DNA from: a virus
Taxonomy: Duplodnaviria > Caudoviricetes
Strand: one strand, 5' to 3'
DNA length: 61,677 nt
IMG/VR virus record: IMGVR_UViG_3300038327_000229
Location: 1-61,677 of that record
The translations under genes and the position numbers were made by a program. The notes under the pieces are model-generated. The model was not told the DNA's origin and made no database searches. It saw only the letters and a program-made list of their open reading frames with translations. Shown here piece after piece: positions 30,912-54,065 of the stretch (positions within the stretch are counted from its first letter, which is position 1; each line of letters opens with the position of its first letter).

Positions 30912-30919
30912 TAATTCTT

Positions 30920-33992: not shown

Positions 33993-36900
33993 ATGCCGTC
34001 AGAAAGAAATAGGTCCGATCTACCTAGAGAATATAGCTTCCATAGGGATCTTATTCAAGATTCAGACAGGCTCAGAGACAGAATCCCCGCATCAAGAGAC
34101 GATGAGCCTCTATTCAACGAAGAAAAAATATTAAGAGAAAACTACGCTACTAGCGATATGGTAGCAAAATTCGCGTTAGTGACTTCAGCTGCTAGTTTAC
34201 TGTCTAAACGCCCCCTCGGTAAGCTAGGCATGGAAATAGCGGGCAAGCTTACTAACATGCTGAACAAGGGACAGAGAACGGCCTCAAAAGCATATTCGAG
34301 ATATGCTGCTGAGGTCGGAGATGTAACTTCTCAGATTAATGCTAACGCATCTGACGCGCTAAGAATAGGCTCGGGCGACACACCACTGATAGCCCACCTA
34401 AAAATATTCGAAGATCTTGATACAAATCTAGATAATTTGAATAGACTAGATCTAGATGGGAGCCTATGGAAAGCCACGGGACCCGATGCAACTTTAAGCG
34501 ACAGTGCGAAACATATTGCGAATCAGATGCGAGACAGTCTGAGAGAGAGATATTCCAGGCAATTCAATTCCTCTGAGGGTATTGAAGATCTTACTGTAGA
34601 CAAACTTCTTGCGATGTCTACAGACAATATACAACGAGAGAAGATCGTAGATCTATTTGGTAAAAAGCAGATTGATCAATTAGAAGACATGAAGAGGATA
34701 GGACTACTCCACGGTGAGCAACGATTAGATGAAAGACTATTCCTTGACACGGCAGCTAAGGAGATAATAGATACAAGAGTACTAAGCGGCCAATATCTCG
34801 GTGGAATGATTGAAAGATCTCTTAGTCAATTCCAGCTCCCTTTCGTCAATTTAAAATTTACAGATATATTCGCTGCACCTATGAAACATCTTCTTGGTAA
34901 AGGTGAAGCTTCAGGCATAGTAAGAGCCCCTGACGCGGCTGAAACTACGGCCAGGAGACTAGTAATAGGTGAAGACCTGTTTAGGATTATTCCTAAAAAG
35001 GAGGCAGCAGATGGTGCTTTTGGATTAGAACATCTTGCTTCTGGTTACCGTGCTAGAAGCACAGATAAGATAGGTGAAGCAGTAATAGCCAGAAGAGGGC
35101 AGCTGCGTAGTCAGGTCAGACAAACACGAGAAGACATTGAGGCGACATCATCGAATCCTTTAGTCCATTTAGCTCATGCTGTTATGGAGGATGCCGGGAT
35201 TGGCAGGAGGTATGCCACACAAGAATCTTTGCTTTGGCAAGCTACAACGAATGTTGTAAAAAGGAGAACTCGCGGAACTCCTGTCCTAAAAGAGACTACT
35301 GAATTAGATGAAGTGACAGAAGAGATAGTAAGAAGAACAGGAACCTCTAAGGTTGATTATTCCGAATTGAATGCAGTAGAAAGATCGATACAGAGAGTCC
35401 AACGAGAGTCTAAGCCAGACATTGAACATGAAAAGCTTGGGTTTTTTCCCAAAAAACGAAGAGAAGTATTAGCTGCATTAGGTGATGAATCTAGGATACA
35501 GTATTTACAAAAAAATCGTCAAACCGGAAAAATGGAACCGGTTGTAAAGCCTGTCCGCGGTACGTCTGAAGCGGACTTTGGCTTACGCCAAGCATCTGTC
35601 ACTGAAAAAATAAAAAAGAATATAGTAGATGTTGCACCCGACCAATCCGAACATAAAAAATGGCTCCCAATGGAATCATTTACTTATGAGTCGGACCTAG
35701 GCAGCAGACTATTAGACACCGCTAACTTTATGACGACTCGCCTTAACGATCTTATCGGTGCTACGATGGGTATCGGATTTAGGCCTACTCCCGGGATGTA
35801 CGGTTTTGCAGGTAACACCACAAAGATATTTGGCATGGCTGCAGGAGGCGTTCTAGCCCTAGAGGGTCTCAAGTATGCTGACTATCTAACAGGAGTTCCT
35901 ACTGGCGGATATAAGGCGTCCAACCTGATTCTCGACACATATGGCGCAGCTAAGATATCGGCACAGTTCCTAAGAGAATTTACTGGTCTATCTCCTGCTG
36001 CCAGGTACATGGAAGATCTTATGCCGGGCTCAATAGAGAGTTCTGCTTCTGATTTCGTAAGAACATTAGCTCCATTTATTATTGCACTGAAAACTGCTCC
36101 CACTAAAGCCAACATTTTACTAGCTACAGGTATCTCGGCTTTTGCTGGAGAAATGCCATTCCCCGGTATAACAGAAACTCCAGAAGAAACCATTGATATA
36201 CTATCAGGAGAACAGCAAGTTCCTATGAGATCTGGTAGATACTGGATGCTTGGTAAGCAGCCATTTGGTGGAGGTAGGGTTAGTTACTTCGCTCCGGGTA
36301 TGTTTGCTAGAATGCGATCCGAATATAAATATACCGATACGCTGTATGGCTCACAAGCAGAGTACTTTAAAAATGTAAGTTTTTTACCAACTCCGAGTAA
36401 CATGTTCAGAATACCTGAGCTAGTCGGAAATGTTCTTAGTCCAGTTACAAACTTACCTTTCGTAGGATCCCTAATAGAACATGCCCCCGTAATAGGGGCA
36501 ATGTTCGATCCTCAGGGAGCTGAGTTCTTAGCAGAAAAACATAGATTCGATAGACCGTATCCTACTGCATTTGGAATAGAGCAACTAGCCAATAGGACAA
36601 TAGGCAAGATGGGTGTTCCTGGAGGAAACTCTCCAGGAGTAAGATCGTACCAAACACCGGGTGAGTCTGTAATAGAAATGGGCATGGATCCATACCCAAC
36701 TCGATCCGAGATGTCATTCGCGGTAAAAAAGCCTACGTTGTCTAGCGGCCTAGCCCACATGAGCGAACTCTCTGGTATATACAAATTTGCGTTATGGGAC
36801 CTAGGACTCAAGACTAGCGCTCCGACTAGTCCCGAGTTAGCTGATCCTGGGTTCATGAGTTCCATAACAAGATCGTTCTATGATGAAAGCGTTGGTGGCC

Positions 36901-38636: not shown

Positions 38637-38640
38637 TAAA

Positions 38641-41600
38641 ATGGCAACACCAGACGAAAATGTTTCCGATCAGTTACGTAGGTTACTTGAGCAGTCAGGA
38701 TCTACAGAATCCAAGTTAACTAGATTCTCAGGCTACACAGATAAAATTAAGCTACAGACAGCAAAAGTAGCAGCTGGAATAAAAAGTGAGTCTTTTCGTA
38801 AGTCGATAGAGGCAGTAGACAGCTCCATAGCTCCCCTTTCGAAACTAGTAGGGAAACTTTGGGACGATTATAGACTGAGAGGCGACCAATCTCTTCGGGG
38901 AGATCTACCTATTTTTGAATATAGAGTTACTGCCAAGGCAATCTCTTCGGGGGGATCTACCTACAAGGGTATTGTAAAAGAAACTGGACTGGAAAGCGAG
39001 CTTGCTAAACAAGTAAGAGATCGATTTGGAGTAAAGTTTGCTCCGGATATACACGATAGTGCTGGTACATACCGGGCGCATAGGCTGCTTACAGATTCCG
39101 GGAAAGCTACTGATGTATCGGAAATAATGCGACACCTAGACTATCTCAGCCCGACTATGAGAAAAAAGATAGAAGGCTGGGCAGAGCTTCGTGAAATAGA
39201 AAAGATTAATAAGAAAGGTAAGAAATACACAAAGGTAACCCAGCAGCTTGAGCTGGCGATGACTAAGCTAGTTGAAGAAGATATAAGACACCAGAGAAGA
39301 GGGATAGAATACCGCTGGGATCAATCAGATCTAGCAATGGCCAATAGAGCAGATAGGGCTAAGCTAGGCAGAATGAAAACCCTTGAAAGAGCCGTAGTAG
39401 CCCCAGGAGGGTCATTCAATCCTACTCTACGTAATTATGAGCAAGAGTTATCTAGGGCAACTAGACTTGTCTCCGAGGAGAAATTTAACACAATCGTCTT
39501 TGGTGGCGAAAAGATAACACCTAGTCGAATAACTCCTGAATTTGGTTCGTTGATTGGCAGTGATGGGGAACCGATTGGAAGGCCTTTAACGGGGGCAAGA
39601 GGGAAGCCATTAACTACTCAGGAAAAACGGCTAGCTAAGTTAATAGAAGGACCTGTTGGGAGTAGGCCTAGCAACATAGGTATGTACCGAGAAACTAGAA
39701 TTGGATTAGCTAGAGAAGAATTTCAATCCACAGGAAATCTTATTAGTGAGCTAGAGTCTCGAGGCTATAGCACAGGGGGCTTAGATAAGTTACTTAGTAA
39801 AGTTGTTGGTAGAGAAGATACGATATCGATCGTAGGTAATGAACTCGCTATTAAATCGGCGCCCGATGCCAAAAGAGGATGGTCCAAACCAATCTCTATA
39901 CCTCTATTTTCTAATGCTATAAACCCATCTGGGGCGCGTAGTGCTGCGAACTTGGGGGTATCTGAATATATGTTCAAGGGCGGTACTACATATAGTACAC
40001 CGTCTGGCGTAGGTGTGACAAATCGGCGTGGTGAACTATCTGAGATTAAGAAGTTTTCTAGAGTAATATATGAGGAGATAGCTGAAGGTATTGACAGAAA
40101 TACGATTAGATCTACTAAAGATTATAATTTTATACTGAACAGAGCATTAGGTGCGCAAGAGAGCATATTCGATCCGATCCTGCCATGGGACGAACGAGTA
40201 AAAAATACTGCAGGACTTATTGATCCCGTAAGCTATTCAGGTAGACCAAAATTAGGTAGGCACCTTCTGGGAGCCTCCCAGCAAATGGCTCTAGAAGTAC
40301 TTCCAGGCACCTCGCTGCATAATCTGCTTGTAGAAGAACAAGAGATAAGAAAACAATACCAGATGGGTATGACGAGGGAGGGAACGGACGGGACAGGTAA
40401 ACGAAACGCAGCTCTTAAAGCCAAGCAACTTAAAGACGCACAAGAAGCTATCATGAAGCATCTTAGAGAAACGACGTTTAAGGGCGCGAGCGGTGATGCA
40501 CCTGCTTTAGGTGGAGTAAGAAACTTTGACGATCTTAATCTTGCTTGGGCTCCTCAAAGTGGAGAATCTATTTTCCGGCCAAATATTTTAGATGAGAATA
40601 GAGCCGCAGAGAGAGTATATATAAAAGCGACTACTGCTAATGTTAAAAACCTAGCGCTACTTCCTAGTCAAGTTCCGTGGAAAAAGGGTCAACAATTTCA
40701 GCTCTCCAGAGATGCCATTCGGATAGGAAGCATAAGCGAGCTGCCTACTGCAGTCGCAGGTATCATGGGTTACGACGGAGAGGTAACTACGGCTTTAAGA
40801 AATGAAATCCGTAGTTTAGACCCGGGAGCAAAAGCCTTTGATCAGACCCATGTCGCCTTTGGCAGAAAAACAGTAGGGCTGCAGTTTCTCGATAAAGAGT
40901 TGAACCGGCTTATCTTTGGAGACTCTGGCGTAGTCATGTCTGGCGGCTTGGTTAAACAACTGGATGTTGATCCGATTAGCGGATTATCGAGACATACATT
41001 CACACATACAATCAATTTGAAATCATCTAAAGCGCTGGGAGATCTGTCTTTTACTGGATTACTTAGAAGCGATCTTCACGCAGCGATTCAAGCACATCAA
41101 CATATGCTTGAACGGGGTAGCAGGCAAATTAGATTTAAGCCCGGACAAGAGATTCAGCTGCAGGTGCTTCAAGAGCATCAGTCTATGTCTGGCATACCCG
41201 GCGGAGTTAATTATGCTGAGCCAGCGATTCCGATGGATCCCACAAAGAGAGGGATGGCAGTAATAGGAGAAGGAACGAAGGCTCTAGAAGAAATTGGCAA
41301 AGAAGACCTACGTCACGCACATGACTTACAGCGCGCTGTGCAGAAGCGTGGTTTCGATCCCAGTAAAACTGTCATAACAGGGGTAAGAATGCTGGCGGGA
41401 TCTTCCGGGTTAGAACTGACTATGGCGGAAAAAGGAGCACCCATCGCGGTAGACGCGGGGTATATCCTCGATCACCAAAGGGTAAGTGTTGGCCAAGTTA
41501 TAGATGATACAGCTGTACGTAAGATATTTGGGTTAGCTGGCGTAAAAGGCATCGAGGCTGGTGCAGGTCTGGTGCTAGGAGACTTAGGTCTTGAAACAGT

Positions 41601-44600: not shown

Positions 44601-44958
44601 TAGATCTGCCATGAGTGGATTCTCTCCAGGTAGTGTACCTGCCTCTGGCTATAACTCTGCTAATACTATGCCTCCGCCTCCAATGATGTCGAGCCCGCAT
44701 GATCCTACTTTTCATCCAGATGCTATGCCTAATACCAGAATAGCTCGTGTAGCAAGGTCTCAGGGGGCAAGAAGCTCCTTGAACATATCAGGCAAGATGG
44801 GCGCTCCCCCAGACTTTAGAGGTATGACCAATCAATTCGGATTAAATAATGGCTATGTCCCCAACATTCAGGGTTCTTTTAGATCCGAGTTGAATGATAC
44901 AATGTCTCGTACAGAAATTTCTCAGCACATCAGCAACAGATTAGATTCGGTGTTTTAA
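38641..44958 (+). CDS. Putative single-chain two-barrel (double-psi beta-barrel) RNA polymerase-like virion protein
   Basis: Beta-like AFGRKTVGLQFL..IFGDSGVVMS (D761); beta-prime-like FGGRLRLQTNAQVGKFEVGITEDAL (R1444), TAVREP (R1495) and AFLNTSMIQYGMEGDLDKDTISLY (D1546/D1548/D1550); C-terminal hydrophobic helix. Confidence 0.65.
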   Translation: MATPDENVSDQLRRLLEQSGSTESKLTRFSGYTDKIKLQTAKVAAGIKSESFRKSIEAVDSSIAPLSKLVGKLWDDYRLRGDQSLRGDLPIFEYRVTAKAISSGGSTYKGIVKETGLESELAKQVRDRFGVKFAPDIHDSAGTYRAHRLLTDSGKATDVSEIMRHLDYLSPTMRKKIEGWAELREIEKINKKGKKYTKVTQQLELAMTKLVEEDIRHQRRGIEYRWDQSDLAMANRADRAKLGRMKTLERAVVAPGGSFNPTLRNYEQELSRATRLVSEEKFNTIVFGGEKITPSRITPEFGSLIGSDGEPIGRPLTGARGKPLTTQEKRLAKLIEGPVGSRPSNIGMYRETRIGLAREEFQSTGNLISELESRGYSTGGLDKLLSKVVGREDTISIVGNELAIKSAPDAKRGWSKPISIPLFSNAINPSGARSAANLGVSEYMFKGGTTYSTPSGVGVTNRRGELSEIKKFSRVIYEEIAEGIDRNTIRSTKDYNFILNRALGAQESIFDPILPWDERVKNTAGLIDPVSYSGRPKLGRHLLGASQQMALEVLPGTSLHNLLVEEQEIRKQYQMGMTREGTDGTGKRNAALKAKQLKDAQEAIMKHLRETTFKGASGDAPALGGVRNFDDLNLAWAPQSGESIFRPNILDENRAAERVYIKATTANVKNLALLPSQVPWKKGQQFQLSRDAIRIGSISELPTAVAGIMGYDGEVTTALRNEIRSLDPGAKAFDQTHVAFGRKTVGLQFLDKELNRLIFGDSGVVMSGGLVKQLDVDPISGLSRHTFTHTINLKSSKALGDLSFTGLLRSDLHAAIQAHQHMLERGSRQIRFKPGQEIQLQVLQEHQSMSGIPGGVNYAEPAIPMDPTKRGMAVIGEGTKALEEIGKEDLRHAHDLQRAVQKRGFDPSKTVITGVRMLAGSSGLELTMAEKGAPIAVDAGYILDHQRVSVGQVIDDTAVRKIFGLAGVKGIEAGAGLVLGDLGLETVENKMVRGVLEETPSYGRNLTLMRNLAELISRKAKGDVGHKDVKTLIAELGGEVKKITGPDGTAIQFQNLGTSEKFHNISDQDFMRRIEEVAKKTIGKDTLRKETFKKVKIQDILDQLPAYKTADAAERKRMEAGFKASGASGSTAAILKDSRLASNEVWMVKSIAAELAIRGEEPLVKLGRDAVNVKLRDISMLGEAIDFAREGQTSTTNLSEILKAKKKIVGSLIDSNPELLQVNNENSLINQQRKWFEKQAGGFGEIERALADEKVGQLKILKKAEQIGSGGRGGVSTGEYKAAGALIESITVEDGKASFAEIGETLLGKKANGIVQISDQAILVKGPNGPMIIPSAKMMGFAKEDGFVRIPGTRGRFEEHTAEAFAHLKKGRVANKQAQSMYLDILRDVENLNLLEGERRIQDTVKIESRLDSLYRVMAMNSLSKQGLAYSSTVDPSAIKFGGRLRLQTNAQVGKFEVGITEDALRNMSFGGKHTEIERIIAQAKKGELYTTAVREPAAGGRQMFQLKVKLLEKSALASESITKDFKFSSTAFLNTSMIQYGMEGDLDKDTISLYRLNSMDDEVMGKMHRGQMASMDNALSKLGEAPETIAGRRIRNYGDLSGLISSMNEGAEGVFRSSALRDETFRSLIDVVGPKHATPLYEGHLRGRSYVDHMVGQIVDMQTDGEGRAVLQANLKERLDESGQQRIGALLDDMADIMKGSGPGTRGGRAATYQYTDARNLIKYMQLKKVAHGRDDVLASDVIYDTLRAAGDQAKADIDAGKSHFAQGILDRQPGGTSKAQAMISTLSENLLVGARIAQDDKMYMNNLSEVNPNTFSLIHNLSGGDDAAKRYAENLAKRFLLIEVMGEEFKHGTRGTALGMPFESTLRDMKALAQSLVESGVISAEGPAALQLADIQGMGGEADAIIGRNIRDSIEGVRVDTQQRRRVQNADKARGALFQSGNVEVPTSSYRNAMFTGEFFAKLSQTKYFKPAAAIVGGLAGIETIRSAMSGFSPGSVPASGYNSANTMPPPPMMSSPHDPTFHPDAMPNTRIARVARSQGARSSLNISGKMGAPPDFRGMTNQFGLNNGYVPNIQGSFRSELNDTMSRTEISQHISNRLDSVF
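38887..38963 (+). repeat. 25-bp direct repeat, two copies 52 nt apart, one mismatch
   Basis: caatctcttcggggagatctaccta (38887-38911) and caatctcttcggggggatctaccta (38939-38963). Confidence 0.85.
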
Positions 44959-47900
44959 ATGCCCATTACCGCCAGTACTCACAGCCTGTCTAAAACACTC
45001 GAAGCCATTGGAGAAAGCCAGGAAGACTTTTTTATCAAGGCGTTGGCCAAGAAGGCAGGCGTCGATACAGTTCCTAATTTCCAGACATATTTCAATACTC
45101 TGTTACAGAAAATTAATGACCTACCCGTTTCTGCTTTCAGCGAACCAGATAAACATAAGATGAAAGGCACATTACATAACTATAATACAACGCTGGTGGG
45201 AGAGGACAGCGAGAGTCATCTACCTGAGCAAGGGGAAGCGAAGCTAAAACTAATTGGCCAAAAAACCCGAGAGACGATGGAGAGAATAATATCATCAAGT
45301 GACGATATATCTCAGATTGGATTCTATAGAATACCAGAATCGGATAGTGATACTGACTTCCCTAGAGTAGTTCCCAGCTCGATAAATATACAGGAGCACT
45401 TACTTAATCAACCAGTGCCAACGGTGAGGTCAAAATCAGTAGGAGTTATACCTAACCATACCTCAAAACATATTGTCTCCATAGATATAATCTTTCCTAG
45501 CTTTGAAATATTCTCATCCACAGAAGAAGATTATCCCAGCTTTATAAATCTATATAATATGTTTAAATTTATGCCAATAAATTCTATATATTCCTCTGCT
45601 CTATGCACTGCATTTGTCTCTGAATACACATATCCCAGGCTGATTGAACTTATCGGCCAGAGCCATGTCGCCGACCAATTCGATAAAGTGAAAGGTGATA
45701 CGGCTTTAGAAAGGCTAACCTCTTTTGCTAAAGACCTAAAAGGAGTAAATAGCAAGGACGACCTTATCGGTATTCTAGGGGGTCAAGGATCTGAACTAGA
45801 TCTCGGATGGAAATCTGCGATAGAATACATCTCTGGCGATCAAACCATAGGCGGCTTAGGCTATGATTGGATGGCTAGTGAATACGATTCCGGCGGGCAA
45901 GATAATGGTATTGCCAGATTTCCTGTCCCCGTATGTTTTAAAGGCGCAAGTCTCCAGACATTGCAAGATATGCCCGGAGCCATACTGGGTCGATTCAGCT
46001 TTGGAATAGTGAGCTCCCCTGCTTTTCCTCACGGCACTATAATGTACAGAGACGAAGAGGGTGAACCTACCATGGACCCCAACAGATGTAAGTGGGGTAA
46101 GAGATACGTCTCATTAGCATCAAAAAAAATCATGGGACAGTTAGAGATAGACAAAAATCTGCTGATGGGCGCAAGGGGTACAGCCAGCGTTCCTCAGCTA
46201 ACTCACAACGATATAAGGCTGTACTATTTTGATATAGTGCATGGACCAATTGTCTTTGATACCACCTCAGATATATATGATAGAACAGAGACACAGGCAC
46301 CAGTCATACTGGAAAAAGTGTCCGGAGCATTTAACTCTAAAACGATAGATATACCGTTGATGGGATCTAAGTTTCCGAGTTGCCAATATATGGGAATGAA
46401 TTCTAGTTCTTTCCAAATGATATTCGCTGTTACAGACAAGAAAATAATAAGTGACTTCATGGCTATGAAGGCCAAGATAGTTGACGCTGAAAAATCTCAG
46501 CATATGTTCAGTTCTTTTGGTATTATAGAAAATCCACTTATTAACTCCTTTGGAATAACTAGAGTTACACCTCAGTCCGTCACAATAGAGTCTGATCCAG
46601 ATTCCCCGGATTTATACAGGCTAATAATTAACTTTGTTGAAAACTATCAAGATTTAGCCGATGAAAAGCTCCAGCTAGAAAAGGGAGCTGTTGCCTTAGA
46701 CCCATTGAAAGGTACATGGGAGTATTTCTATGATCTATATAAGATATGGGCTACGATATATATGAAAAATTATTATTTATATAGTGGAAACTTAGAAGTA
46801 ATTAGCTCAGAACATGCTAATCAACTTAACGATCTTATGCGAGCAATTGGCATAAGTACTGATGAAGAAGGTACAATACTTAACCCAGGCAGAGGGGGGA
46901 TAAAAGACGCGCATAGCGTACCATATGGTCCAGTATTGATGGGAATAATGGATCAGAGACTTCAGCTAAAGAATAACACCCCCCCGGAAAGTACACGGGT
47001 GTCCGGATATATCCAACAGGATCTTCCCGAACTAGAATACTATCCGGTAAACAGATCTGATGCCGCTCTCTCGGACTTCGCAGGCCCGCCAGATCGAGAG
47101 GTGGCATCGATAAGTCCGAGAATCGCAAGGGCCTTAGTCCAAATTGCACATGGTGCGATAAGAGCAGATAAACATACAAAGGATCTGTCGTCTTTCTCGG
47201 TATTTGAAACACAAAATGAACATACAAACCAAAGAATATTTCATTCACCCGAACTGCATCAGCTATTCTATGGGGTGCTTGGCGTATCTCCATTCATTCC
47301 AATATTTGAGGACGAGGATGGAGACTATAACCAAGGTAACATTTTTGATTATGGAGTAGACCCAACCGAGAATAAATACTATAAATTGCATAGGGAATTA
47401 AATACTTGGACGGTTAGGGACACGAATTGGTTCACGACAGATGATAATGTATATAGTGCACGATCTCGCCATGGATCAGATGCTACATTCCGCGCTAAAA
47501 ACCTTGTAGATATATGGCATAGTCAGGGGAAGATACTTCCTAAACCACTATGGGATAGTATATTTAAATGTATTAGTCGCCGGTTAAGCAGCAAGGGGCC
47601 TGATATATTCGTAAGCTCAAGGAATATGGATAAATCCATTAACCATTTCATGGATTTGATTTCAAAATATTCTAGCCTATATAAATTCAATATAGTTAAT
47701 AGGAATGAGCGTGAATACTCAAGACTGGTATGGATCTCGATCAGGCAACAAAATCTGAATAATATTAATGACCACGACACTGTGTTCTTGAATAGGTTAT
47801 CGGCTACTACCTTCAAAGATTTCCCGAATCGTCGCAAGGAGGCAGGCATTGTCGCAGAGTATGATATAACCAGAGAAAAGGAACTAGCAAAAGAAGTTGC

Positions 47901-50900
47901 TTCATTCAATAATGTCATAATTGATTTATACCCAGATCTATATCTACCAACATACAGCGAGTTATTCAATGAATCAGAAAATGTTGAGAATCCCACCGAT
48001 GCTTTGAATAATTTTAAAAAATTGTTAAAGAAATTTGCTCCAAAATGCGGAGATCGAGGAGTGACACCAGGTAGAGACAGCGATGGGAATCGTATATCAC
48101 ACGCTAACTTAATGGGGATGACGATAGCCGACATCTCTGATGCCGCTGCAGCAGGTCCGGATGAATATATCGACCCAGACATCTTCTATTATCGATCTAG
48201 AGATAAACAAAACATGGCTGCGTACAGTGACGCAAATCCTCTTGTTGATAGCAATGCTGCCAAAGACCTAAAAAGTAAAACTCTTATTTTCCCACTTACA
48301 GGCAAGAAGATAATAGATAAACTAAAAGAGAAGGCAATTAGCGCAGGCAATAAATATGAACTAGAATCTCTTAACAGCACTTTGGGTAGGGGAAAGATTA
48401 ACCAGATATTCAAAGATGAGATTCTACCGCTGATTATGACTAGTTATAGAAGTTATTCTAGTGAGACTGAAGGCAGGAAGGATGCCCAGGCTCAAGCCTT
48501 GGCAGAGGACTTAAATGAATGGCTCGGAGAGCCTATCAAAGAAGGAATAGGATCATTCGATGTGGGTTATACACGGAAGTTGCTAGCTCTAGTGGAGGAC
48601 AAATTCATAAATATAGAGTTTGTAAATCCGGAGGGCACAGTCATAGGCATAATGGATAGGAAATCCGACAGTACCGGGTATGAGGCAGTTGACATAGGAA
48701 CACATACAGAGCCGAAAGGTTTTAACAGTACAACCAGTATGACTGTTGTTCATAGTAACATAGAAAATATTAATGCCATAGATCAACAACAAATAGTCCA
48801 TATGCCCGATTTTACTGAGTCCTTATTGAGAAGTTTTCCCACGATAAGACTCTATTTTATAGAAGAAGATCGTGAACAAGAAAATCGACTAGATGACTTT
48901 TATGGATTTAGAGATATACTAGAATGTTCTATCTCTTCCCATATGTATGACAACGATATATGTACTATGAAGCTATCGAATATGAGTGGTGTATTATCTA
49001 CAATGGCCTTTTCTGATTATGTTACTACTAAGAAGATAAAAAGAGCTCCCGATAAGGACAACGGACCAGACAAAGCACACTCCGCTACTAATACTCAGGA
49101 TTCAATAAGCGTGACAGACGACGAAGGGGAAAGATTTCTCACAAAGATTATGCTAAGACCTGGTATACATATCATGATAAAAATGGGCTATGGGAATAAT
49201 ATAGAGCATTTAAAAACTGTATTTACTGGAGAAATATCAGAAGTAAAGAATGGAAATATTGTTGAGATTATAGCTCAAGGTTATCAAACTGAATTACAAA
49301 ATGACTTTGGAGGATTTTATGACGAGAGTACTTGGGATCTGTTTAAAGGTCTGTTGCCCGATTTCTTTAGACCGGAATCACAGCATATCCAAAATAAGTA
49401 CTCTTTTTTAGATATTATAAATTATATAATACTAAGCAATACAAATATGACTGAGAAGAATGGAAAAGGTATGACTCATCTCGGTGAGGTCATCGAGGTA
49501 GCCCCTTATCGCAAAGGAGGTCCTTGGTCACAAAAGGATCCAATGTATGGATACGATAATAAGGATGGTAGTAACGCCATAGCCAAGATACTCGGAGAGG
49601 ATACAGTGCAAGCGTTCCTGTCTAAAGGAGACAACTTTTCATTCTTCGATGAGTATATGGAATACCAGTTTTATGGATTCAGTGGCTATGACATAGGAAG
49701 GAATATATACACCTCGATTTCTAATAGTTCAGAAATTAACATAACTAAAGAGTGGCTAACCGTTACCGGTCCTATCATAGATGGACTAAGAGAAGTTACA
49801 AGATATATGCCTAACTTCATTGCTACAGTAGTTCCCTACCAGCAAGATGCAACCCTGTTCATTGGTGATCCATCTTCGGTGTATGAGTATCGACCTGCTA
49901 CCAGCGAAGAAAAGAAATTTTTAGTTAAATATAATACGGGATCAGCAGATAAGGTTCAAAAAGCAGCGGAAGATCGCAATACCACATATATGCAGCTTTT
50001 TCAGCATATAAATAGGCTAAGCATAGCAACAAGAACTCGAGTGAAACAGTATAATATCAGGAGAATATATAATTACTTTGAGTCGCCTCCACTAGTAGCA
50101 GAAGGGATCCACGTCGAAGGTGTTGACCAAAACGGCCAAGATTTTGATGGCCGTAGACTGAATCGTACTCAGGGTAACTCATTTAAGGAGAATCCTACAC
50201 CTGAAGATCTAGACCTGGAGGAATTGGTTTATGGAGTTTACTATAACGCGATTAGTGACGCTGATTTTGATGCGATACGTCACGCGGTCGGAGATCTCCT
50301 AGGTCACTATTTAAACTTGAGCAAAGAACAGATAAGTGAGAATCACGGGGACCTTACCGATCTCGCAAAGACTATATCAGAATTCTATATTCCGAGCAGT
50401 TTATATAATAAGAACTTTTCTGTGAAAGTGGGTGATATTACTGTCAGAGTCAGTAACGCTGGACCAGCGACGGGCGGCTGGGAGATAAACGGAGTGAGCG
50501 TGGATGCGGCGCTCCGGGCAGGCGATGGTGCCCTCTTCGCAAAGAAGCGCGATAGTATGTTCGGGCCTAGCCTGCTGGTGGGTTCATTAGACGACAAAAA
50601 TAGGCGATACTATGCAACAAAACGGGTAACAGGTAATATTGACCTAAGTATACTAAATCACTTTAGGGAGATACTTGAGTCTAACTATGAAAACCCCGAA
50701 CATCCTGCCCAAAAAATTAGCTTTGAGTCATTTATTCAGGACATCCGCCATACTGGTTCCGGTTATTTAAATTCCCCTCGTGCTACAGTCGAAGGCGACT
50801 TCCTTGCAAATCCCGGGGTGAAAAAGACGCCGAAGAATAGGGTACGAGCTTTTGGACTTCGGCGATCCCTGGCCGAGGAGATCGAAGAGTTTCTCACACC

Positions 50901-52437
50901 TTCACAGAACTATAATAATAACCACCACGCTCTGGCCGCTATTATCAATGATGTGATCCTACCATTCAAGCAGATCTTATTGCTAGCTCATGAAATTCTG
51001 AGCGGCGATAATCCAGATGAGATAGATGATGCTATACGGGAACTTATGTCCGAAGAACCTGGGAGCAGACCTACTATACCATTTAACTATAAAGTATTTA
51101 GAGACTACCATGCGGTAACTACTACTCACGATTTGATTGCAAATAATATAGCTGCGTCAGAATCCGACATGTGGAGTGCTGTTAAGCTTCTGGTTCCCAC
51201 GGATACGACTGATGCAACGGCTGGATGGGCGAATTACCAGATGGCTGACTGGGGTATCTACGAGGGGGGCGTAGATGTAGGCAGCAATGTATTCCGTATA
51301 GATTCGAGCCAAGGTTTTGCGTCATGGCCAATTAAAAGTTCAGCTGGAATGAACTATAGGGGATTAACCCCAAGTCCAAGAGATATAACAGAAACATTTA
51401 CCGAGATAAATTCAACTACCCCAAATTTAGCCAACCACGCCTTAACTTTTAGAATAGCACAAGGAATGTCTAAAATGTATCGTGGCAATATTATAATGGT
51501 AGGTCGCAATATAAAACCGTATGACGCGATACTCTTAGGCGATGATGTAAATAAGATGTATGGAACTTTTATGGCAGAAAGAGTAATACAAAATTTTAGC
51601 GCAGTTAACGGGTGGACAACTACAGTAGTTCCCTGTGGTTTAACTCGAGTGAATTCTATTACCGGTACATACGGGGCGAGTGGCTGGCAAAAATTATGGT
51701 ATACAATTGGAGAAGGGCGAGGTTTTGAAACAGCGCTTAATATCGCGATGCTCGCTAGTCTCTTCGTTCCTATATTAGGTGGCTTTTCTTTAGCGGCAAG
51801 AGTGGTTCTTGGCGCAGTCCTTCGAGGTAGCTGGGGCATAGTACGTACGGCGGGTTCCCTAACTCCTTGGATAGGTAAAAAACTTGGACTGAATGCATGG
51901 AAAATTATAAGTGAAACCGCCGTAAGCATTGGGTATAGACATGGCGCCTCCGGCGCGATCGGAAGGTTAGCTTTACCTGGAGCATGGCAAGCAGCAACTA
52001 GCGTCGGCGGATTCGGATCTATTGTGCGAAGAGGAGCAGGTGTTACAGCCGGTGAAATAATAGGGATGCGCTTTGCTGCCGGAGCTGGCTGGATTATTCC
52101 AGAAGTGTTGATTGGAAAACTAGGAATGAAGGGGGGGGCAGGTATTGTTAGTCAGTTTATGAATCCAACTTTCTCTCAATCAAGCGTTTTACGCAAAGGA
52201 GAGAATGACACCTTTAGTGTTAAGGGGTATAAGCCTGCTAAAATGGAATTGCTAAGATATAATGGGGCTCCCTTCGTGGCGGGGCTAGAGGATATGTATG
52301 AGTCGATACAAAATCATGGAGGTTGGGCGGATACTATGATCGATGTAGGATACATGCTTAGAGAATTCTTCGCTTCAACTGCTTCGTCAAACCATTTTAT
52401 TCTTGATGGGGAAATGCCGGAGGACAGTAATGAGTAG
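44959..52437 (+). CDS. Giant baseplate hub-like protein with C-terminal hydrophobic/Gly-rich region
   Basis: LRPGIHIMIKMGYG..KTVFTGEISEV..VEIIAQG and YRGNIIMVGRNIKPYDAILLGD..GTFMAERVIQNFS..GWTTTV fit the gp27/gpD hub pattern; upstream of gp25-like and J-like genes. Confidence 0.65.
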   Translation: MPITASTHSLSKTLEAIGESQEDFFIKALAKKAGVDTVPNFQTYFNTLLQKINDLPVSAFSEPDKHKMKGTLHNYNTTLVGEDSESHLPEQGEAKLKLIGQKTRETMERIISSSDDISQIGFYRIPESDSDTDFPRVVPSSINIQEHLLNQPVPTVRSKSVGVIPNHTSKHIVSIDIIFPSFEIFSSTEEDYPSFINLYNMFKFMPINSIYSSALCTAFVSEYTYPRLIELIGQSHVADQFDKVKGDTALERLTSFAKDLKGVNSKDDLIGILGGQGSELDLGWKSAIEYISGDQTIGGLGYDWMASEYDSGGQDNGIARFPVPVCFKGASLQTLQDMPGAILGRFSFGIVSSPAFPHGTIMYRDEEGEPTMDPNRCKWGKRYVSLASKKIMGQLEIDKNLLMGARGTASVPQLTHNDIRLYYFDIVHGPIVFDTTSDIYDRTETQAPVILEKVSGAFNSKTIDIPLMGSKFPSCQYMGMNSSSFQMIFAVTDKKIISDFMAMKAKIVDAEKSQHMFSSFGIIENPLINSFGITRVTPQSVTIESDPDSPDLYRLIINFVENYQDLADEKLQLEKGAVALDPLKGTWEYFYDLYKIWATIYMKNYYLYSGNLEVISSEHANQLNDLMRAIGISTDEEGTILNPGRGGIKDAHSVPYGPVLMGIMDQRLQLKNNTPPESTRVSGYIQQDLPELEYYPVNRSDAALSDFAGPPDREVASISPRIARALVQIAHGAIRADKHTKDLSSFSVFETQNEHTNQRIFHSPELHQLFYGVLGVSPFIPIFEDEDGDYNQGNIFDYGVDPTENKYYKLHRELNTWTVRDTNWFTTDDNVYSARSRHGSDATFRAKNLVDIWHSQGKILPKPLWDSIFKCISRRLSSKGPDIFVSSRNMDKSINHFMDLISKYSSLYKFNIVNRNEREYSRLVWISIRQQNLNNINDHDTVFLNRLSATTFKDFPNRRKEAGIVAEYDITREKELAKEVASFNNVIIDLYPDLYLPTYSELFNESENVENPTDALNNFKKLLKKFAPKCGDRGVTPGRDSDGNRISHANLMGMTIADISDAAAAGPDEYIDPDIFYYRSRDKQNMAAYSDANPLVDSNAAKDLKSKTLIFPLTGKKIIDKLKEKAISAGNKYELESLNSTLGRGKINQIFKDEILPLIMTSYRSYSSETEGRKDAQAQALAEDLNEWLGEPIKEGIGSFDVGYTRKLLALVEDKFINIEFVNPEGTVIGIMDRKSDSTGYEAVDIGTHTEPKGFNSTTSMTVVHSNIENINAIDQQQIVHMPDFTESLLRSFPTIRLYFIEEDREQENRLDDFYGFRDILECSISSHMYDNDICTMKLSNMSGVLSTMAFSDYVTTKKIKRAPDKDNGPDKAHSATNTQDSISVTDDEGERFLTKIMLRPGIHIMIKMGYGNNIEHLKTVFTGEISEVKNGNIVEIIAQGYQTELQNDFGGFYDESTWDLFKGLLPDFFRPESQHIQNKYSFLDIINYIILSNTNMTEKNGKGMTHLGEVIEVAPYRKGGPWSQKDPMYGYDNKDGSNAIAKILGEDTVQAFLSKGDNFSFFDEYMEYQFYGFSGYDIGRNIYTSISNSSEINITKEWLTVTGPIIDGLREVTRYMPNFIATVVPYQQDATLFIGDPSSVYEYRPATSEEKKFLVKYNTGSADKVQKAAEDRNTTYMQLFQHINRLSIATRTRVKQYNIRRIYNYFESPPLVAEGIHVEGVDQNGQDFDGRRLNRTQGNSFKENPTPEDLDLEELVYGVYYNAISDADFDAIRHAVGDLLGHYLNLSKEQISENHGDLTDLAKTISEFYIPSSLYNKNFSVKVGDITVRVSNAGPATGGWEINGVSVDAALRAGDGALFAKKRDSMFGPSLLVGSLDDKNRRYYATKRVTGNIDLSILNHFREILESNYENPEHPAQKISFESFIQDIRHTGSGYLNSPRATVEGDFLANPGVKKTPKNRVRAFGLRRSLAEEIEEFLTPSQNYNNNHHALAAIINDVILPFKQILLLAHEILSGDNPDEIDDAIRELMSEEPGSRPTIPFNYKVFRDYHAVTTTHDLIANNIAASESDMWSAVKLLVPTDTTDATAGWANYQMADWGIYEGGVDVGSNVFRIDSSQGFASWPIKSSAGMNYRGLTPSPRDITETFTEINSTTPNLANHALTFRIAQGMSKMYRGNIIMVGRNIKPYDAILLGDDVNKMYGTFMAERVIQNFSAVNGWTTTVVPCGLTRVNSITGTYGASGWQKLWYTIGEGRGFETALNIAMLASLFVPILGGFSLAARVVLGAVLRGSWGIVRTAGSLTPWIGKKLGLNAWKIISETAVSIGYRHGASGAIGRLALPGAWQAATSVGGFGSIVRRGAGVTAGEIIGMRFAAGAGWIIPEVLIGKLGMKGGAGIVSQFMNPTFSQSSVLRKGENDTFSVKGYKPAKMELLRYNGAPFVAGLEDMYESIQNHGGWADTMIDVGYMLREFFASTASSNHFILDGEMPEDSNE

Positions 52438-53636: not shown

Positions 53637-54065
53637 ATGTACGGCAATAGAGATATAAGTACTACTGAGAATGGAGATCTGGTAGTAGATAATGGCGATT
53701 TAGCTATATCTACTGCGTCTGAGTCTCTTTTGAGAACTGTCAATTTTTGTTTGTTAACCAATTACTCAGGGTATAAGCCGGAGAGACACTTTGGAGCTAG
53801 CCCTGATAAGTTTATAGGTCAACAAAATAACTCAAACACGAGAAATGAGATAAGACTACATATAGACTACTACCTTAAAAATCAAGGATTACTGATGGGA
53901 GCGACACATAGCTTGAATGTAGTACCGGTTGGTAACCATGAGATCGCAGTCATTCTAAAAATTAATACTCTAATAATAGAGAGTTCTACTGAAGCTAGTC
54001 CTCAGGAAATGATAATAGCATATAAGTACGATTTCAATAACGGGACGTTAGAAGCGGTAGCATAA
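53637..54065 (+). CDS. Baseplate wedge protein, gp25/W-like
   Basis: DISTTENGDLVVDNGDLAI..LLTNYSGYKPERHFGASPDKFIG; directly upstream of the J-like gene. Confidence 0.75.
   Translation: MYGNRDISTTENGDLVVDNGDLAISTASESLLRTVNFCLLTNYSGYKPERHFGASPDKFIGQQNNSNTRNEIRLHIDYYLKNQGLLMGATHSLNVVPVGNHEIAVILKINTLIIESSTEASPQEMIIAYKYDFNNGTLEAVA

What the first reader, a model, noticed from the sequence alone, without database searches (positions are those of the whole stretch)
33993..52437. Three consecutive giant genes (1547, 2105, 2492 aa), each with membrane-type helices: a possible injected transcription platform
Seen: ~18.4 kb holds only three tightly packed genes (gaps of 4 and 0 nt), and each product has Gly/Ala-rich hydrophobic helices. 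The four proteins upstream of terL share this style. Known: tape measure and ejection proteins form trans-envelope conduits, and crAss-like phages eject large proteins together with a virion RNAP. Inference: this contractile-tailed phage may deliver a membrane-tethered complex of channel, RNAP and nucleases, possibly using transcription to pull the genome in. This is a hypothesis from gene context only.
Basis: inference. Interest (0 to 1): 0.72.

Follow-up and report, generated by a model that had tools for sequence, protein, structure and literature searches.

The report
RNA-polymerase-like giant in phage tail module
The three giant genes are the tail-core trio of a large contractile-tailed phage (a conserved virion protein, the tape-measure-slot protein and the baseplate hub), and the middle one hides the catalytic core of a cell-type RNA polymerase, so the phage probably fires its own transcription enzyme into the host.

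Summary
The three ORFs exist exactly as described: 1547, 2105 and 2492 aa, with gaps of 4 and 0 nt. They keep the same order in 6 of 6 related loci. Gene by gene, the tail module is colinear with Bacillus phages 0305phi8-36 and vB_BceM_WH1 and Acinetobacter phage ME3.

- **Giant 1** belongs to the ORF145 family, a mass-spectrometry-confirmed virion protein of unknown function.
- **Giant 2** sits in the slot of the 0305phi8-36 "tape measure" ORF146.
- **Giant 3** is a homologue of the gp27/gpD-type baseplate hub ORF147.

Giant 2 has no Pfam, PHROG or PDB sequence match. It does carry an R-x-P...(48 aa)...D-L-D-K-D signature that is invariant in 17 of 17 relatives. An AlphaFold model of residues 1235-1800 matches only the largest subunits of RNA polymerases: 50 of 50 Foldseek rows, and VIA ranks 1-12 at Z 8.6-10.4. 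The slot-equivalent proteins of the cultured phages WH1, KLEB27-3 and ME3 carry the same signature.

The second (beta-like) barrel, the enzyme activity and virion delivery are not shown. Strong membrane-type helices exist only at the C-terminus of giant 3. No nuclease domain was detected in the trio.

This is a contractile-tail analogue of the Thermus phage P23-45 tape-measure-fused virion RNA polymerase, and my literature searches found no published report of it.

The parts
28642..30192 (+). Tail sheath (516 aa)
   Evidence: phrog_16991 'tail sheath', E 3e-41. Its only tblastn hits in 50,697 phage records are 0305phi8-36, WH1, Edson, KLEB27-3, MTATph1 and ME3.
30192..30845 (+). Tail tube (217 aa)
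   Evidence: blastp to WH1 gp101 (E 2e-54) and to 0305phi8-36 ORF140 'tail tube' (E 1e-35). The PHROG label 'major head protein' looks like a misnomer.
30872..32035 (+). Tail tube paralogue (387 aa)
   Evidence: blastp to WH1 gp100 (E 1e-17) and to 0305phi8-36 ORF141 'tail tube paralog' (E 5e-15).
32835..33314 (+). Tail chaperonin-like protein 1 (159 aa)
   Evidence: blastp to 0305phi8-36 ORF143 'hypothetical tail chaperonin' (E 2e-6) and to WH1 gp098 (E 1e-5).
33318..33989 (+). Tail chaperonin-like protein 2 (223 aa)
   Evidence: blastp to 0305phi8-36 ORF144 (E 3e-10) and to WH1 gp097 (E 0.003).
33993..38636 (+). Giant 1 (1547 aa): ORF145-family virion protein, function unknown. It is the most conserved of the three.
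   Evidence: tblastn to 0305phi8-36 ORF145, a virion protein by mass spectrometry (E 9e-15). hhalign of the family against WH1 gp096: probability 100, E 3e-131, 937 columns. The 18 closest listed relatives are 58-79% identical. No Pfam, PHROG, NCBIfam or PDB match.
38641..44958 (+). Giant 2 (2105 aa): tape-measure-slot protein with an embedded RNA-polymerase-like module
   Evidence: It lies between the ORF145 homologue and the hub homologue, one gene after the chaperonin pair, as ORF146 does in 0305phi8-36. The family is tiny: 12 clusters, and 10 hits among 1.84 billion representatives.
42343..43395 (+). Giant 2 residues 1235-1585: beta'-like part (N-terminal elements plus the metal-binding double-psi beta-barrel)
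   Evidence: AlphaFold model m2a45eccfe311. VIA ranks 1-12 are all largest RNAP subunits, Z 8.6-10.4. Foldseek gives 50 of 50 rows from RNAP entries, best E 3.7e-4.
43123..43131 (+). R1495-E-P1497, the upstream half of the polymerase signature
   Evidence: R and P are invariant in 17 of 17 sequences. It lies 48 residues before the aspartate triad and so fits the '[RK]xPx{20,100}DxDxD' filter of Chaban 2024, Supplementary Data 4.
43276..43290 (+). D1546-L-D-K-D1550, the candidate metal-binding aspartate triad
   Evidence: It is the only DxDxD in the protein. G, D, D, K and D are invariant in 17 of 17 sequences. It lies inside the stretch that aligns to the active-site barrel of Rpb1, beta' and P23-45 gp96.
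44488..44955 (+). Giant 2 C-terminal end (residues 1950-2105): a short Gly/Ala hydrophobic helix, a Pro-rich stretch and a strongly conserved tail
   Evidence: Many invariant columns run up to the last residue. There is a weak likeness to the C-terminus of WH1 gp095 (hhalign probability 5.9%, E 0.006).
44959..52437 (+). Giant 3 (2492 aa): giant baseplate hub homologue
   Evidence: hhalign of the family against 0305phi8-36 ORF147 'baseplate hub protein': probability 96.9, E 1.7e-10. tblastn/blastp to WH1 gp094. phrog_20474, E 4e-25.
48820..49308 (+). Giant 3 residues 1288-1450: hub-type domain shared with ORF147, WH1 gp094 and ME3_37
   Evidence: Hardies 2007 assigns the ORF147 core to the T4 gp27 / P2 gpD family (passages).
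51076..51663 (+). Giant 3 residues 2040-2235: second strongly conserved block, colinear with phrog_20474 positions ~1370-1457
   Evidence: Invariant columns. Family members match phrog_20474 here.
51721..51828 (+). Giant 3 residues 2255-2290: transmembrane-type hydrophobic segment(s)
   Evidence: KD19 peak of 2.06 at residue 2262; 23 uncharged residues at 2258-2280. 11 of 24 family members have such a segment in the last 300 residues.
53637..54065 (+). gp25-type sheath initiator / baseplate protein (142 aa)
   Evidence: PF10934 at E 0.0036, below its cut-off; phrog_2669 'baseplate protein'; blastp to 0305phi8-36 ORF150.
54065..55204 (+). gpJ/gp6-type baseplate wedge (379 aa)
   Evidence: phrog_6, E 8e-19; blastp to 0305phi8-36 ORF151, which is gpJ-like.

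Best explanation
The window is about a third of an uncultured ~190-kb contractile-tailed phage. It is distantly related to Bacillus phage 0305phi8-36, Bacillus phages WH1/Edson/KLEB27-3, Acinetobacter phage ME3 and Moorella phage MTATph1. The three giants are that lineage's conserved tail-core trio, encoded between the tail chaperonin pair and the baseplate genes.

1. Giant 1 is an ORF145-family virion protein of unknown function.
2. Giant 2 is the protein in the tape-measure slot.
3. Giant 3 is a giant gp27/gpD-type baseplate hub. It carries a long unexplained N-terminal extension and a C-terminal membrane-type segment.

In this phage and its uncultured relatives, the tape-measure-slot protein contains a very diverged beta'-type catalytic module of a two-barrel RNA polymerase (R-x-P ... 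D-x-D-K-D).

Inferred mechanism: the protein is assembled into the tail like a tape measure and is expelled ahead of the DNA when the sheath contracts. Its polymerase module then transcribes the first genes to enter, as shown for the tape-measure-fused virion polymerase gp96 of Thermus phage P23-45.

Shown here: gene order, homologies, motif invariance and fold likeness. Inferred only: the tape-measure role, presence in the virion, polymerase activity, and a second (beta-like) barrel that completes the active site.
For: Context. The tail module is colinear with WH1, 0305phi8-36 and ME3, gene by gene: tube, tube paralogue, 232-aa protein, two chaperonins, giant 1, giant 3, gp25-like and gpJ-like (blastp; annotated records). 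The sheath hits only these phages among 50,697 records. In the 0305phi8-36 record, ORF145 and ORF146 are marked as identified in virions by mass spectrometry, and ORF147 is annotated as the hub. The tape-measure and gp27 assignments come from Hardies 2007 (passages).

Homology. Giant-1 family against WH1 gp096: hhalign probability 100, E 3e-131. Giant-3 family against ORF147: probability 96.9, E 1.7e-10.

Polymerase signature. Giant 2 has a single DxDxD. G1545, D1546, D1548, K1549, D1550, R1495 and P1497 are invariant in 17 of 17 sequences that are 30-66% identical. The spacing fits the published RNAP filter, and DxDKD variants occur in phiKZ-type non-virion RNAPs (same table).

Fold.
- Model of residues 1235-1800 (pLDDT 61.5): VIA against 48,161 chains gives ranks 1-12 all largest RNAP subunits (Pol I-V, vaccinia, ASFV, archaeal, plastid, M. 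tuberculosis, AR9), Z 8.6-10.4.
- Designed and Cdc48-type double-psi barrels follow. Then come phiKZ nvRNAP (Z 7.5), P23-45 gp96 (Z 6.8, model 207-350 against chain 680-811), RDR2 and QDE-1 (Z 6.3).
- Foldseek on the same model: 50 of 50 rows from RNAP entries, best the AR9 nvRNAP at E 3.7e-4.
- The earlier, larger model gave the same families more weakly: 36 of 44 Foldseek rows, and VIA ranks 1-9.

Relatives. The slot-equivalent proteins WH1 gp095 and KLEB27-3 gp034 carry NRYPTIN...KAD(H/Y)DGD. Both get sub-threshold Pfam RNA_pol_Rpb1_2 hits exactly there (E 5.4e-4 and 7e-5 per genome). ME3_36 carries REPAQG...GGDHDQD.

Distribution. The stand-alone RdRP/YonO-type polymerase (PF05183) is found only in 0305phi8-36, whose ORF146 lacks any DxDxD. 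It is absent from WH1, KLEB27-3 and ME3.
Against: - No sequence method links giant 2 to any polymerase. Pfam on 17 family members, the window scan with PF00623, PDB phmmer and profile searches, and hhalign against E. coli rpoC and rpoB were all negative.
- The motif alone is weak: 481 of 5000 shuffles of giant 2 contain [RK]xP...DxDxD.
- The models are of low to moderate confidence (pLDDT 55 and 61.5, pTM 0.35 and 0.37). Long alignments to beta' have rmsd of 14-18 A; only the ~110-130-residue barrel aligns at about 4 A.
- A beta-type second barrel with its two basic residues was not located, so a complete active site is not shown.
- hhalign finds no likeness between the polymerase region of giant 2 and that of WH1 gp095, so common descent of the modules is unproven.
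- 0305phi8-36 ORF146 and Moorella MT_27, in the same slot, have no DxDxD. The module is therefore not a fixed feature of the slot.
- The tape-measure role rests on position only. Giant 2 has no BLAST-level match to any slot protein.
- Only 32% of the genome is in hand.
Confidence: 0.6

Rival explanations
1. Giant 2 is simply a long tape measure or internal tail protein. Its double-psi beta-barrel is a structural or cell-wall-attacking domain (barrels of this fold occur in RlpA/MltA-type lytic transglycosylases, expansins and Cdc48 N-domains), or a dead relic of a polymerase. No transcription is involved.
For: Many non-polymerase double-psi barrels score Z 5.6-8.6 against the model: designed barrels, Cdc48/VAT/PEX1 N-domains, expansin and cerato-platanin. 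The second barrel was not found. The motif occurs by chance in 9.6% of shuffles. Tail-core giants of this lineage often carry wall-degrading domains (Hardies 2007 passages). The slot proteins of 0305phi8-36 and MTATph1 lack the motif.
Against: The 12 best VIA chains and all 50 Foldseek rows are polymerase largest subunits, not lytic enzymes. Their alignments extend 270-340 columns beyond the barrel. The R-x-P plus DxDxD pair is invariant over 17 sequences down to 30% identity. Cultured relatives have near-canonical NRxPT...ADxDGD with Pfam Rpb1_2 hits at that spot. No Pfam lytic domain matched.
Confidence: 0.15
2. One reading: the three giants (with the proteins upstream of terL) form one membrane-tethered complex of channel, polymerase and nucleases, and transcription pulls the genome in.
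For: The polymerase-like module is real. Giant 3 has C-terminal membrane-type segments. The three genes are always adjacent. Chaban 2024 proposes coupling of transcription with DNA passage through a tape-measure pore for P23-45 (Discussion section). The 1166-aa protein at 88-3588 has a Cas4-like stretch and one hydrophobic segment.
Against: No nuclease family was detected in any of the three giants. Giants 1 and 2 have no segment of transmembrane strength, and 0 of 16 giant-2 relatives do. Nothing ties the proteins upstream of terL to the tail; the 1166-aa one has no match in the phage collection. [quoted passage not shown]
Confidence: 0.12
3. The polymerase module is active, but the protein is not a virion component. 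It is a non-virion phage RNA polymerase that happens to be encoded in the late tail operon.
For: Virion presence was not tested for this phage. Giant 2 shares no detectable sequence with the mass-spectrometry-confirmed ORF146 apart from position.
Against: It is tightly packed (gaps of 4 and 0 nt) between two homologues of virion proteins in a late structural operon. Its extreme C-terminus is strongly conserved, as is typical of tail-core proteins that dock in the hub. A polymerase for early genes made only late would have to be packaged to be useful.
Confidence: 0.08

Closest known systems
Thermus phage P23-45 gp96, tape-measure-fused virion two-barrel RNA polymerase (Chaban et al. 2024, PMC10770324; abstract, sections 6, 11-13 and Supplementary Data 4 part 1 read)
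   Same: A giant protein in the tape-measure position of the tail module carries a cryptic RxP...DxDxD polymerase core that sequence searches cannot see. The gp96 structure matches the model barrel (8h2m_A, Z 6.8, chain 680-811, around the DFDGD at 779-783). The proposed role is the same: transcription of the first genes by an enzyme delivered through the tail.
   Different: P23-45 has a non-contractile tail; this phage has a contractile one. In gp96 the polymerase is N-terminal, whereas here it lies at residues ~1235-1950 of 2105. Here the closest folds are multisubunit beta'/Rpb1 and the AR9/phiKZ beta' pieces, not gp96. There is no detectable sequence relationship. Activity and virion presence are shown for gp96 and not here.
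Bacillus phage 0305phi8-36 ORF145 / ORF146 / ORF147 with chaperonins ORF143/144 (EF583821; Hardies et al. 2007, PMC2147016, passages read)
   Same: Same gene order and the same homologous neighbours: tube, tube paralogue, chaperonin pair, ORF145 family, hub family, gp25/gpJ-like. Three consecutive giants of 1903-2537 aa.
   Different: ORF146 has no DxDxD, and that phage has a separate RdRP/YonO-type polymerase. ORF147 carries recognisable wall-degrading domains, but giant 3 here has none detectable. Identity is low, about 25-29% over parts only.
Bacillus phages vB_BceM_WH1 (gp096/gp095/gp094), Edson and vB_BauM_KLEB27-3 (gp034), and Acinetobacter phage vB_AbaM_ME3 (ME3_35/36/37)
   Same: Cultured phages with the same trio. 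Their middle giant carries the polymerase signature: NRYPTIN...KAD(H/Y)DGD, or REPAQG...GGDHDQD. In WH1 and KLEB27-3, sub-threshold Pfam Rpb1_2 hits fall at that site.
   Different: There is no hhalign-level similarity of the middle giants to giant 2, except a weak C-terminal match. The records annotate them only as 'virion structural protein', 'structural protein' or 'hypothetical protein'. No paper on WH1 or KLEB27-3 was found.
Beta' N-terminal subunits of phiKZ/AR9-type jumbo-phage multisubunit RNA polymerases (PDB 7s00_d, 7ogp_A, 8que_A)
   Same: The best Foldseek match is 7s00_d (E 3.7e-4). The DxDKD form of the triad is listed for phiKZ-type non-virion enzymes in Chaban's table.
   Different: Those enzymes are made of four or five separate small subunits encoded outside the tail module. 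Here one 2105-aa chain lies in the tail module, and no beta-type subunit has been identified.
crAss-like phage phi14:2 gp66 and N4 gp50 virion RNA polymerases
   Same: Giant virion-delivered polymerases fused to large regions of unknown function (Chaban 2024 Discussion).
   Different: These are podovirus-type particles with cargo stored in the head or muzzle. N4 gp50 has an unrelated fold (recalled). gp66 did not appear among the 50 best VIA rows, which neither shows nor excludes kinship.

Membership tests
Two-barrel (double-psi beta-barrel) RNA polymerases | Metal-binding DxDxD loop in the beta'-type barrel, preceded by [RK]xP at 20-100 residues | tested here: met
   R1495-x-P1497, then 48 aa, then D1546-L-D-K-D1550. 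It is the only DxDxD in the protein and is invariant in 17 of 17 sequences. The filter wording is from Chaban 2024 Supplementary Data 4. As a chance control, 481 of 5000 shuffles also show the pattern, so the weight lies in the invariance.
Two-barrel (double-psi beta-barrel) RNA polymerases | Beta'-type barrel fold around the triad | tested here: met
   Model residues ~205-350 align to Pol IV (Z 10.0, rmsd 4.2, 127 aa), S. pombe Pol I (Z 9.6, rmsd 3.9, 112 aa), a designed double-psi barrel (Z 8.6, rmsd 2.2, 84 aa) and P23-45 gp96 (Z 6.8). Foldseek gives 50 of 50 rows from RNAP entries. The model has moderate confidence (pLDDT 61.5).
Two-barrel (double-psi beta-barrel) RNA polymerases | Second (beta-type) barrel supplying two basic residues | tested here: inconclusive
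   A conserved beta-rich block at residues 1258-1349, with invariant K1337 and R1349, precedes the barrel. No beta/Rpb2 chain appeared among the 50 best rows. The Atlas gave no usable hit, and hhalign against rpoB was negative.
Two-barrel (double-psi beta-barrel) RNA polymerases | Bridge helix / trigger loop after the barrel | tested here: inconclusive
   Residues 1560-1940 are predicted helical but at pLDDT 25-65. An invariant block T1713-Y-x-Y-T-D-x-R-N...K1730 exists. hhalign placed it beside the start of the E. coli beta' bridge-helix region, but only at probability 0.2%.
Two-barrel (double-psi beta-barrel) RNA polymerases | Template-dependent RNA synthesis | not testable with these tools
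   This needs a biochemical assay.
Tail tape measure protein | Gene position between the tail chaperone genes and the hub gene | tested here: met
   Giant 2 lies one gene after the chaperonin pair and directly before the hub homologue, as ORF146 does in 0305phi8-36 (Hardies passage).
Tail tape measure protein | Protein length proportional to tail length; extended helical ruler | not testable with these tools
   No virion image exists for this uncultured phage. [quoted passage not shown]
Tail tape measure protein | Sequence kinship with a known tape measure | tested here: inconclusive
   No Pfam or PHROG tape-measure hit. There is only a weak C-terminal likeness to WH1 gp095 (probability 5.9%). 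Weak BFVD rows are named tape measure, E 0.002-0.16.
gp27 / gpD-type baseplate hub (giant 3) | Homology to a recognised hub protein's core domain | tested here: met
   Family against 0305phi8-36 ORF147: hhalign probability 96.9, E 1.7e-10, 159 columns. The link from ORF147 to T4 gp27 / P2 gpD is taken from Hardies 2007 and was not re-tested. Pfam Phage_GPD did not match.
0305phi8-36 ORF145 family (giant 1) | Sequence homology over the conserved core | tested here: met
   tblastn to ORF145 at E 9e-15, and hits in 6 distinct phages (8 records). hhalign against WH1 gp096: probability 100.
Integral membrane / channel-forming ejection proteins | Hydrophobic segments of transmembrane length and strength | tested here: inconclusive
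   Giant 3 has them: KD 2.06 at residue 2262, and 11 of 24 relatives have one. Giants 1 and 2 have none at KD >=1.6, and 0 of 16 giant-2 relatives do. The scale is crude and no dedicated predictor was available.
Nucleases (PD-(D/E)XK, DEDD exonuclease) | Match to a nuclease family within the three giants | tested here: inconclusive
   No hit in Pfam, PHROG or NCBIfam. PF00929 and PF12705 six-frame scans of the window were empty. hhalign against E. coli dnaQ was negative. The folds of giant 1, of giant 2 residues 1-1080 and of giant 3 were not predicted.

The most novel reading that the evidence does not exclude
The tape-measure-slot giant of a whole, widely spread lineage of large contractile-tailed phages is a tail-delivered RNA polymerase built on a cell-type (beta'-like) core. 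The lineage includes uncultured aquatic phages like this one and the cultured Bacillus phages WH1, Edson and KLEB27-3 and Acinetobacter phage ME3. If so, fusing the first-transcription enzyme to the tail's internal ruler is not a curiosity of one Thermus siphovirus group. It would be a recurrent or ancient strategy. It would also alternate with a stand-alone YonO-type polymerase, as in 0305phi8-36. The conserved N-terminal 380-1100 region of the same chain may supply the missing beta-like half.
Probability: 0.45. Interest if true: 0.8.

Novelty: new variant of a known kind. Interest (0 to 1): 0.68.

Why it matters
Phage-encoded virion RNA polymerases let a phage start its programme independently of the host enzyme. 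How such large enzymes are packaged and delivered is known in only a few systems: N4, crAss-like phages, phiKZ-like phages and P23-45.

A polymerase core hidden in the tape-measure slot of contractile-tailed jumbo phages would extend the P23-45 principle to a different tail type. It would also extend it to cultured, tractable phages of Bacillus and Acinetobacter, where it can be tested directly.

It would revise the statement that jumbo phages outside group 1, apart from two others, encode no polymerase of their own (Iyer 2021, passage seen). It would also add a very diverged branch to the two-barrel polymerase family, useful for defining the minimal catalytic core.

In practice, it shows that three 'hypothetical' giants making up 30% of this window can be named.

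Tried and rejected
Sequence searches that found nothing useful:
- Pfam, PHROG and NCBIfam on the three giants.
- Pfam on 17 giant-2 relatives and 20 giant-3 relatives, and PHROGs on 22 relatives. Only phrog_20474 and phrog_8809 matched, both for giant 3.
- PDB phmmer and profile searches for all three giants. Only chance-level rows appeared.
- tblastn of giant 2 against 50,697 phage records: no match.
- A profile search of 1.84 billion representatives returned only the family itself, 10 hits.
- hhalign of the giant-2 family against E. coli rpoC, rpoB and dnaQ, WH1 gp095 and ME3_36: nothing above probability 6%.
- PF00623, PF00929 and PF12705 six-frame scans of the window: empty.

ESM Atlas:
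- Giant 1 gave only weak leads (best 0.87; LPD38/LPD39 clusters at 0.83).
- Giant 2 residues 380-1100 gave no usable hit.

Complex prediction: giant 2 residues 620-1060 against 1235-1600 returned 'no answer' (score 0.00). This is not evidence either way.

BFVD: the top row A0A7R7G2L5_2 (E 5.2e-4) has no name. Its piece length of 1258 would fit half of WH1 gp095, but I could not verify its identity.

Ideas rejected:
- Giant 1 as the beta-like partner subunit. Its family also occurs in 0305phi8-36, whose slot protein has no triad.
- A DEDD-exonuclease reading of giant 2's N-terminal motifs, and a PD-(D/E)XK reading of giant 1's core. I considered both after seeing earlier scan notes. The motif spacings do not fit by eye and no tool supports them, so they remain untested by fold.

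Chaperonin pair: the two chaperonin-like ORFs show no mutual similarity.

Capped out: a third structure prediction (giant 1 core, giant 2 N-terminal region, giant 3).

Full report
**What is there.** The window is an IMG/VR virus record of 61,677 bp, estimated 32% complete, so the phage genome is about 190 kb. All long ORFs lie on the + strand. Their order is terminase, portal, capsid, sheath, tube..., baseplate. The three ORFs of the finding are exactly as stated: 33993-38636 (1547 aa), 38641-44958 (2105 aa) and 44959-52437 (2492 aa), separated by 4 and 0 nt. They are conserved genes. I found 25, 12 and 24 database proteins for giants 1, 2 and 3, counting the window's own. The three genes stand in the same order in 6 of 6 related loci fetched from viral and metagenome contigs; in 4 of these loci giant 3 runs off the contig end.

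**The hydrophobic helices.** A Kyte-Doolittle scan (19-residue window, threshold 1.6) finds transmembrane-strength segments only in giant 3: residue 1991 and a cluster at 2255-2290, with a peak of 2.06. The maxima in giants 1 and 2 are 1.37 and 1.43. Long uncharged hydrophobic stretches are no commoner than in shuffled sequences in any of the three. In the families, 11 of 24 giant-3 relatives, 0 of 16 giant-2 relatives and 5 of 25 giant-1 relatives (marginally) have such a segment. This part of the observation therefore holds only for giant 3.

**What the trio is.** None of the giants matches Pfam or NCBIfam. Only giant 3 matches a PHROG, phrog_20474, a family of giant proteins labelled 'endolysin', at E 4e-25.

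tblastn against 50,697 phage records linked giants 1 and 3 to a small set of large contractile-tailed phages. These are Bacillus phages 0305phi8-36, vB_BceM_WH1, Edson and vB_BauM_KLEB27-3, Acinetobacter phage vB_AbaM_ME3 and Moorella phage MTATph1. The sheath hits only these phages.

Their annotated records show the same layout: sheath, tube, tube paralogue, one more gene, two 'tail chaperonins', three giants, then gpV-, gp25- and gpJ-like baseplate genes. A gene-by-gene blastp confirms colinearity for:
- the tube, the tube paralogue and the 232-aa protein;
- both chaperonin-like proteins;
- giant 1 and giant 3;
- the gp25-like and gpJ-like proteins.

Profile comparison gives probability 100 (E 3e-131, 937 columns) for the giant-1 family against WH1 gp096. 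It gives probability 96.9 (E 1.7e-10) for the giant-3 family against 0305phi8-36 ORF147.

In the 0305phi8-36 record, ORF145 and ORF146 are marked as identified in virions by mass spectrometry. ORF146 is the 'hypothetical tape measure protein' and ORF147 the 'baseplate hub protein'. Hardies et al. 2007 (PMC2147016; passages seen) explain these assignments:
- The tape-measure assignment rests mainly on tail length.
- ORF147 matches T4 gp27 / P2 gpD in folding domains 1 and 3.

So giant 1 is an ORF145-family virion protein of unknown function. It is also the most conserved of the three, with the 18 closest listed relatives 58-79% identical. Giant 2 occupies the tape-measure slot. Giant 3 is a giant hub homologue with an unexplained, well conserved N-terminal 1280 residues and a hydrophobic C-terminus.

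**The polymerase-like module.** Giant 2 has one DxDxD, D1546-L-D-K-D1550. In alignments of 12 and then 17 family members (30-66% identical), the residues G1545, D1546, D1548, K1549 and D1550 are invariant. So are R1495 and P1497, which lie 48 residues upstream.

This is the pattern '[RK]xPx{20,100}DxDxD' that Chaban et al. 2024 used as a filter for two-barrel RNA polymerases. Their table lists DNDKD and DDDKD for phiKZ-type non-virion enzymes (Supplementary Data 4, part 1). The pattern alone is weak, because 481 of 5000 shuffles of giant 2 contain it. Its weight comes from the invariance.

Sequence methods see nothing:
- Pfam on all 17 members;
- PDB by sequence or profile;
- a profile search of 1.84 billion representatives, which returned only the family itself, 10 hits;
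- hhalign against E. coli rpoC and rpoB.

**Fold evidence.** A first AlphaFold model of residues 1080-1950 (pLDDT 55) gave no Foldseek hit at E <= 0.001. Even so, 36 of the 44 rows shown were chains of RNA polymerase entries, and VIA ranks 1-9 of 48,161 chains were largest polymerase subunits at Z 6.7-7.8.

A second model of residues 1235-1800 (pLDDT 61.5, pTM 0.37) sharpened this.
- VIA ranks 1-12 are all largest subunits: human Pol I, vaccinia, Drosophila Pol II, Arabidopsis Pol IV, Sulfolobus, plastid, S. pombe Pol I, yeast Pol III, M. tuberculosis, Pol V, phage AR9 and ASFV. Their Z scores are 8.6-10.4.
- Designed and Cdc48-type double-psi barrels follow.
- Next come phiKZ nvRNAP (Z 7.5), P23-45 gp96 (Z 6.8; model 207-350 against chain 680-811, the stretch that holds its DFDGD at 779-783), RDR2 and QDE-1 (Z 6.3) (the motif position is).
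- Foldseek gave 50 of 50 rows from polymerase entries. The best was the AR9 non-virion polymerase beta' piece at E 3.7e-4.

The barrel itself aligns at about 4 A over 110-130 residues. The longer alignments into the beta' N-terminal part have rmsd 14-18 A and should not be over-read.

I could not locate the second, beta-type barrel. There is a conserved beta-rich block at 1258-1349 with invariant K1337 and R1349, and a conserved region at 380-1100 that I could not fold. The Atlas, hhalign and a complex job gave nothing.

**Relatives with the same feature.** WH1 gp095 and KLEB27-3 gp034, which are only 27% identical to each other, both carry NRYPTIN...(35-37 aa)...KAD(H/Y)DGD. A six-frame scan with Pfam RNA_pol_Rpb1_2 gives sub-threshold hits exactly there and nowhere else in those genomes (E 5.4e-4 and 7e-5). 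ME3_36 carries S-R-E-P-A-Q-G...(40 aa)...G-G-D-H-D-Q-D, close to giant 2's V-R-E-P-A-A-G-G...G-D-L-D-K-D.

By contrast, 0305phi8-36 ORF146 and the Moorella slot protein have no DxDxD. 0305phi8-36 is also the only one of the five records with a stand-alone RdRP/YonO-type polymerase (PF05183, E 1e-20). The sample is small, but it suggests two alternative solutions.

hhalign does not connect giant 2's module with that of WH1. Common origin rather than convergence is therefore open.

**How it probably works.**
- Shown: the position, the homologies, the invariant signature and the fold likeness.
- Inferred: giant 2 is built into the tail core like a tape measure. Its strongly conserved C-terminal end would fit docking in the hub. 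It leaves the tube on contraction, and its polymerase module transcribes the first entering genes, as in P23-45 (Chaban 2024, sections 6 and 13).

Giant 3 would form the hub or puncturing device, and its C-terminal hydrophobic segment may insert in the membrane. Giant 1's role is unknown.

I found no nuclease in the trio. The only nuclease-like hit of the window is the Cas4-like stretch of the 1166-aa protein at 88-3588.

**Is it in print?** Four full-text searches on tape measure plus virion or two-barrel polymerase returned only the P23-45 paper as relevant. No paper mentions WH1 or KLEB27-3. Iyer et al. 2021 (PMC7824862; passages) place ME3 in group 2.2. [quoted passage not shown] Subscription-only papers are not covered by these searches.

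Earlier notes of this scan report the same theme in at least 16 other genomes. I read them only after reaching my reading, and I treat them as leads, not evidence.

**Verdict.** This is a new variant of a known kind, namely a tape-measure-slot, beta'-like polymerase module in contractile-tailed jumbo phages.

Noticed in passing
window 88-3588 (+): A 1166-aa protein upstream of the terminase has a Cas4-like PD-(D/E)XK stretch at residues ~918-1038 (phrog_1706 E 2e-13; TIGR00372 E 5e-5, below its cut-off). It also has one Gly-rich hydrophobic segment at residue 817. It has no match in 50,697 phage records.
   Followed up: partly
window 30192-30845 and 30872-32035 (+): The two tail-tube paralogues match phrog_9206, which is labelled 'major head protein'. 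Yet they are homologous to the tail tube ORF140/ORF141 of 0305phi8-36 and to WH1 gp101/gp100. The PHROG label looks wrong.
   Followed up: partly
records EF583821.1, LC597490.1, OM634661.1, KU935715.1, OR602862.1: The stand-alone RdRP/YonO-type polymerase (PF05183) occurs only in 0305phi8-36, the phage whose tape-measure-slot protein lacks the aspartate triad. WH1, KLEB27-3 and ME3 have the triad in the slot protein and no PF05183 hit. MTATph1 has neither.
   Followed up: partly
L014 (Moorella phage MTATph1) 24204-27534: In this relative the giant trio is interrupted by an annotated transposase and small ORFs between the second giant and the hub-like giant. The hub-like giant is annotated 'endolysin'.
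   Followed up: no
protein P0066 (distant giant-1 relative, 2425 aa): It carries a precomputed PF14528 (LAGLIDADG_3) domain. This suggests an intein or homing endonuclease inserted in an ORF145-family gene.
   Followed up: no
window 52403-53167 (+): The listed TTG start of the 254-aa ORF overlaps the end of giant 3 by 35 nt, so the true start may be further downstream. This ORF and the next (145 aa) have no family match. By position they may correspond to the gpV-like spike region.
   Followed up: no
window 23617-26997 (+): A 1126-aa protein has only a short DUF7187 match (E 5e-8) and long antisense ORFs. The 24-26 kb stretch has the highest GC (0.488) and the only clearly negative GC skew in the window.
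   Followed up: no
giant 3 residues 115-600 (window ~45300-46760): The N-terminal region of the hub giant is very strongly conserved across 23 relatives, with many invariant Pro/Gly/aromatic columns. It matches no family. It sits where relatives carry wall-degrading or nuclease domains.
   Followed up: no
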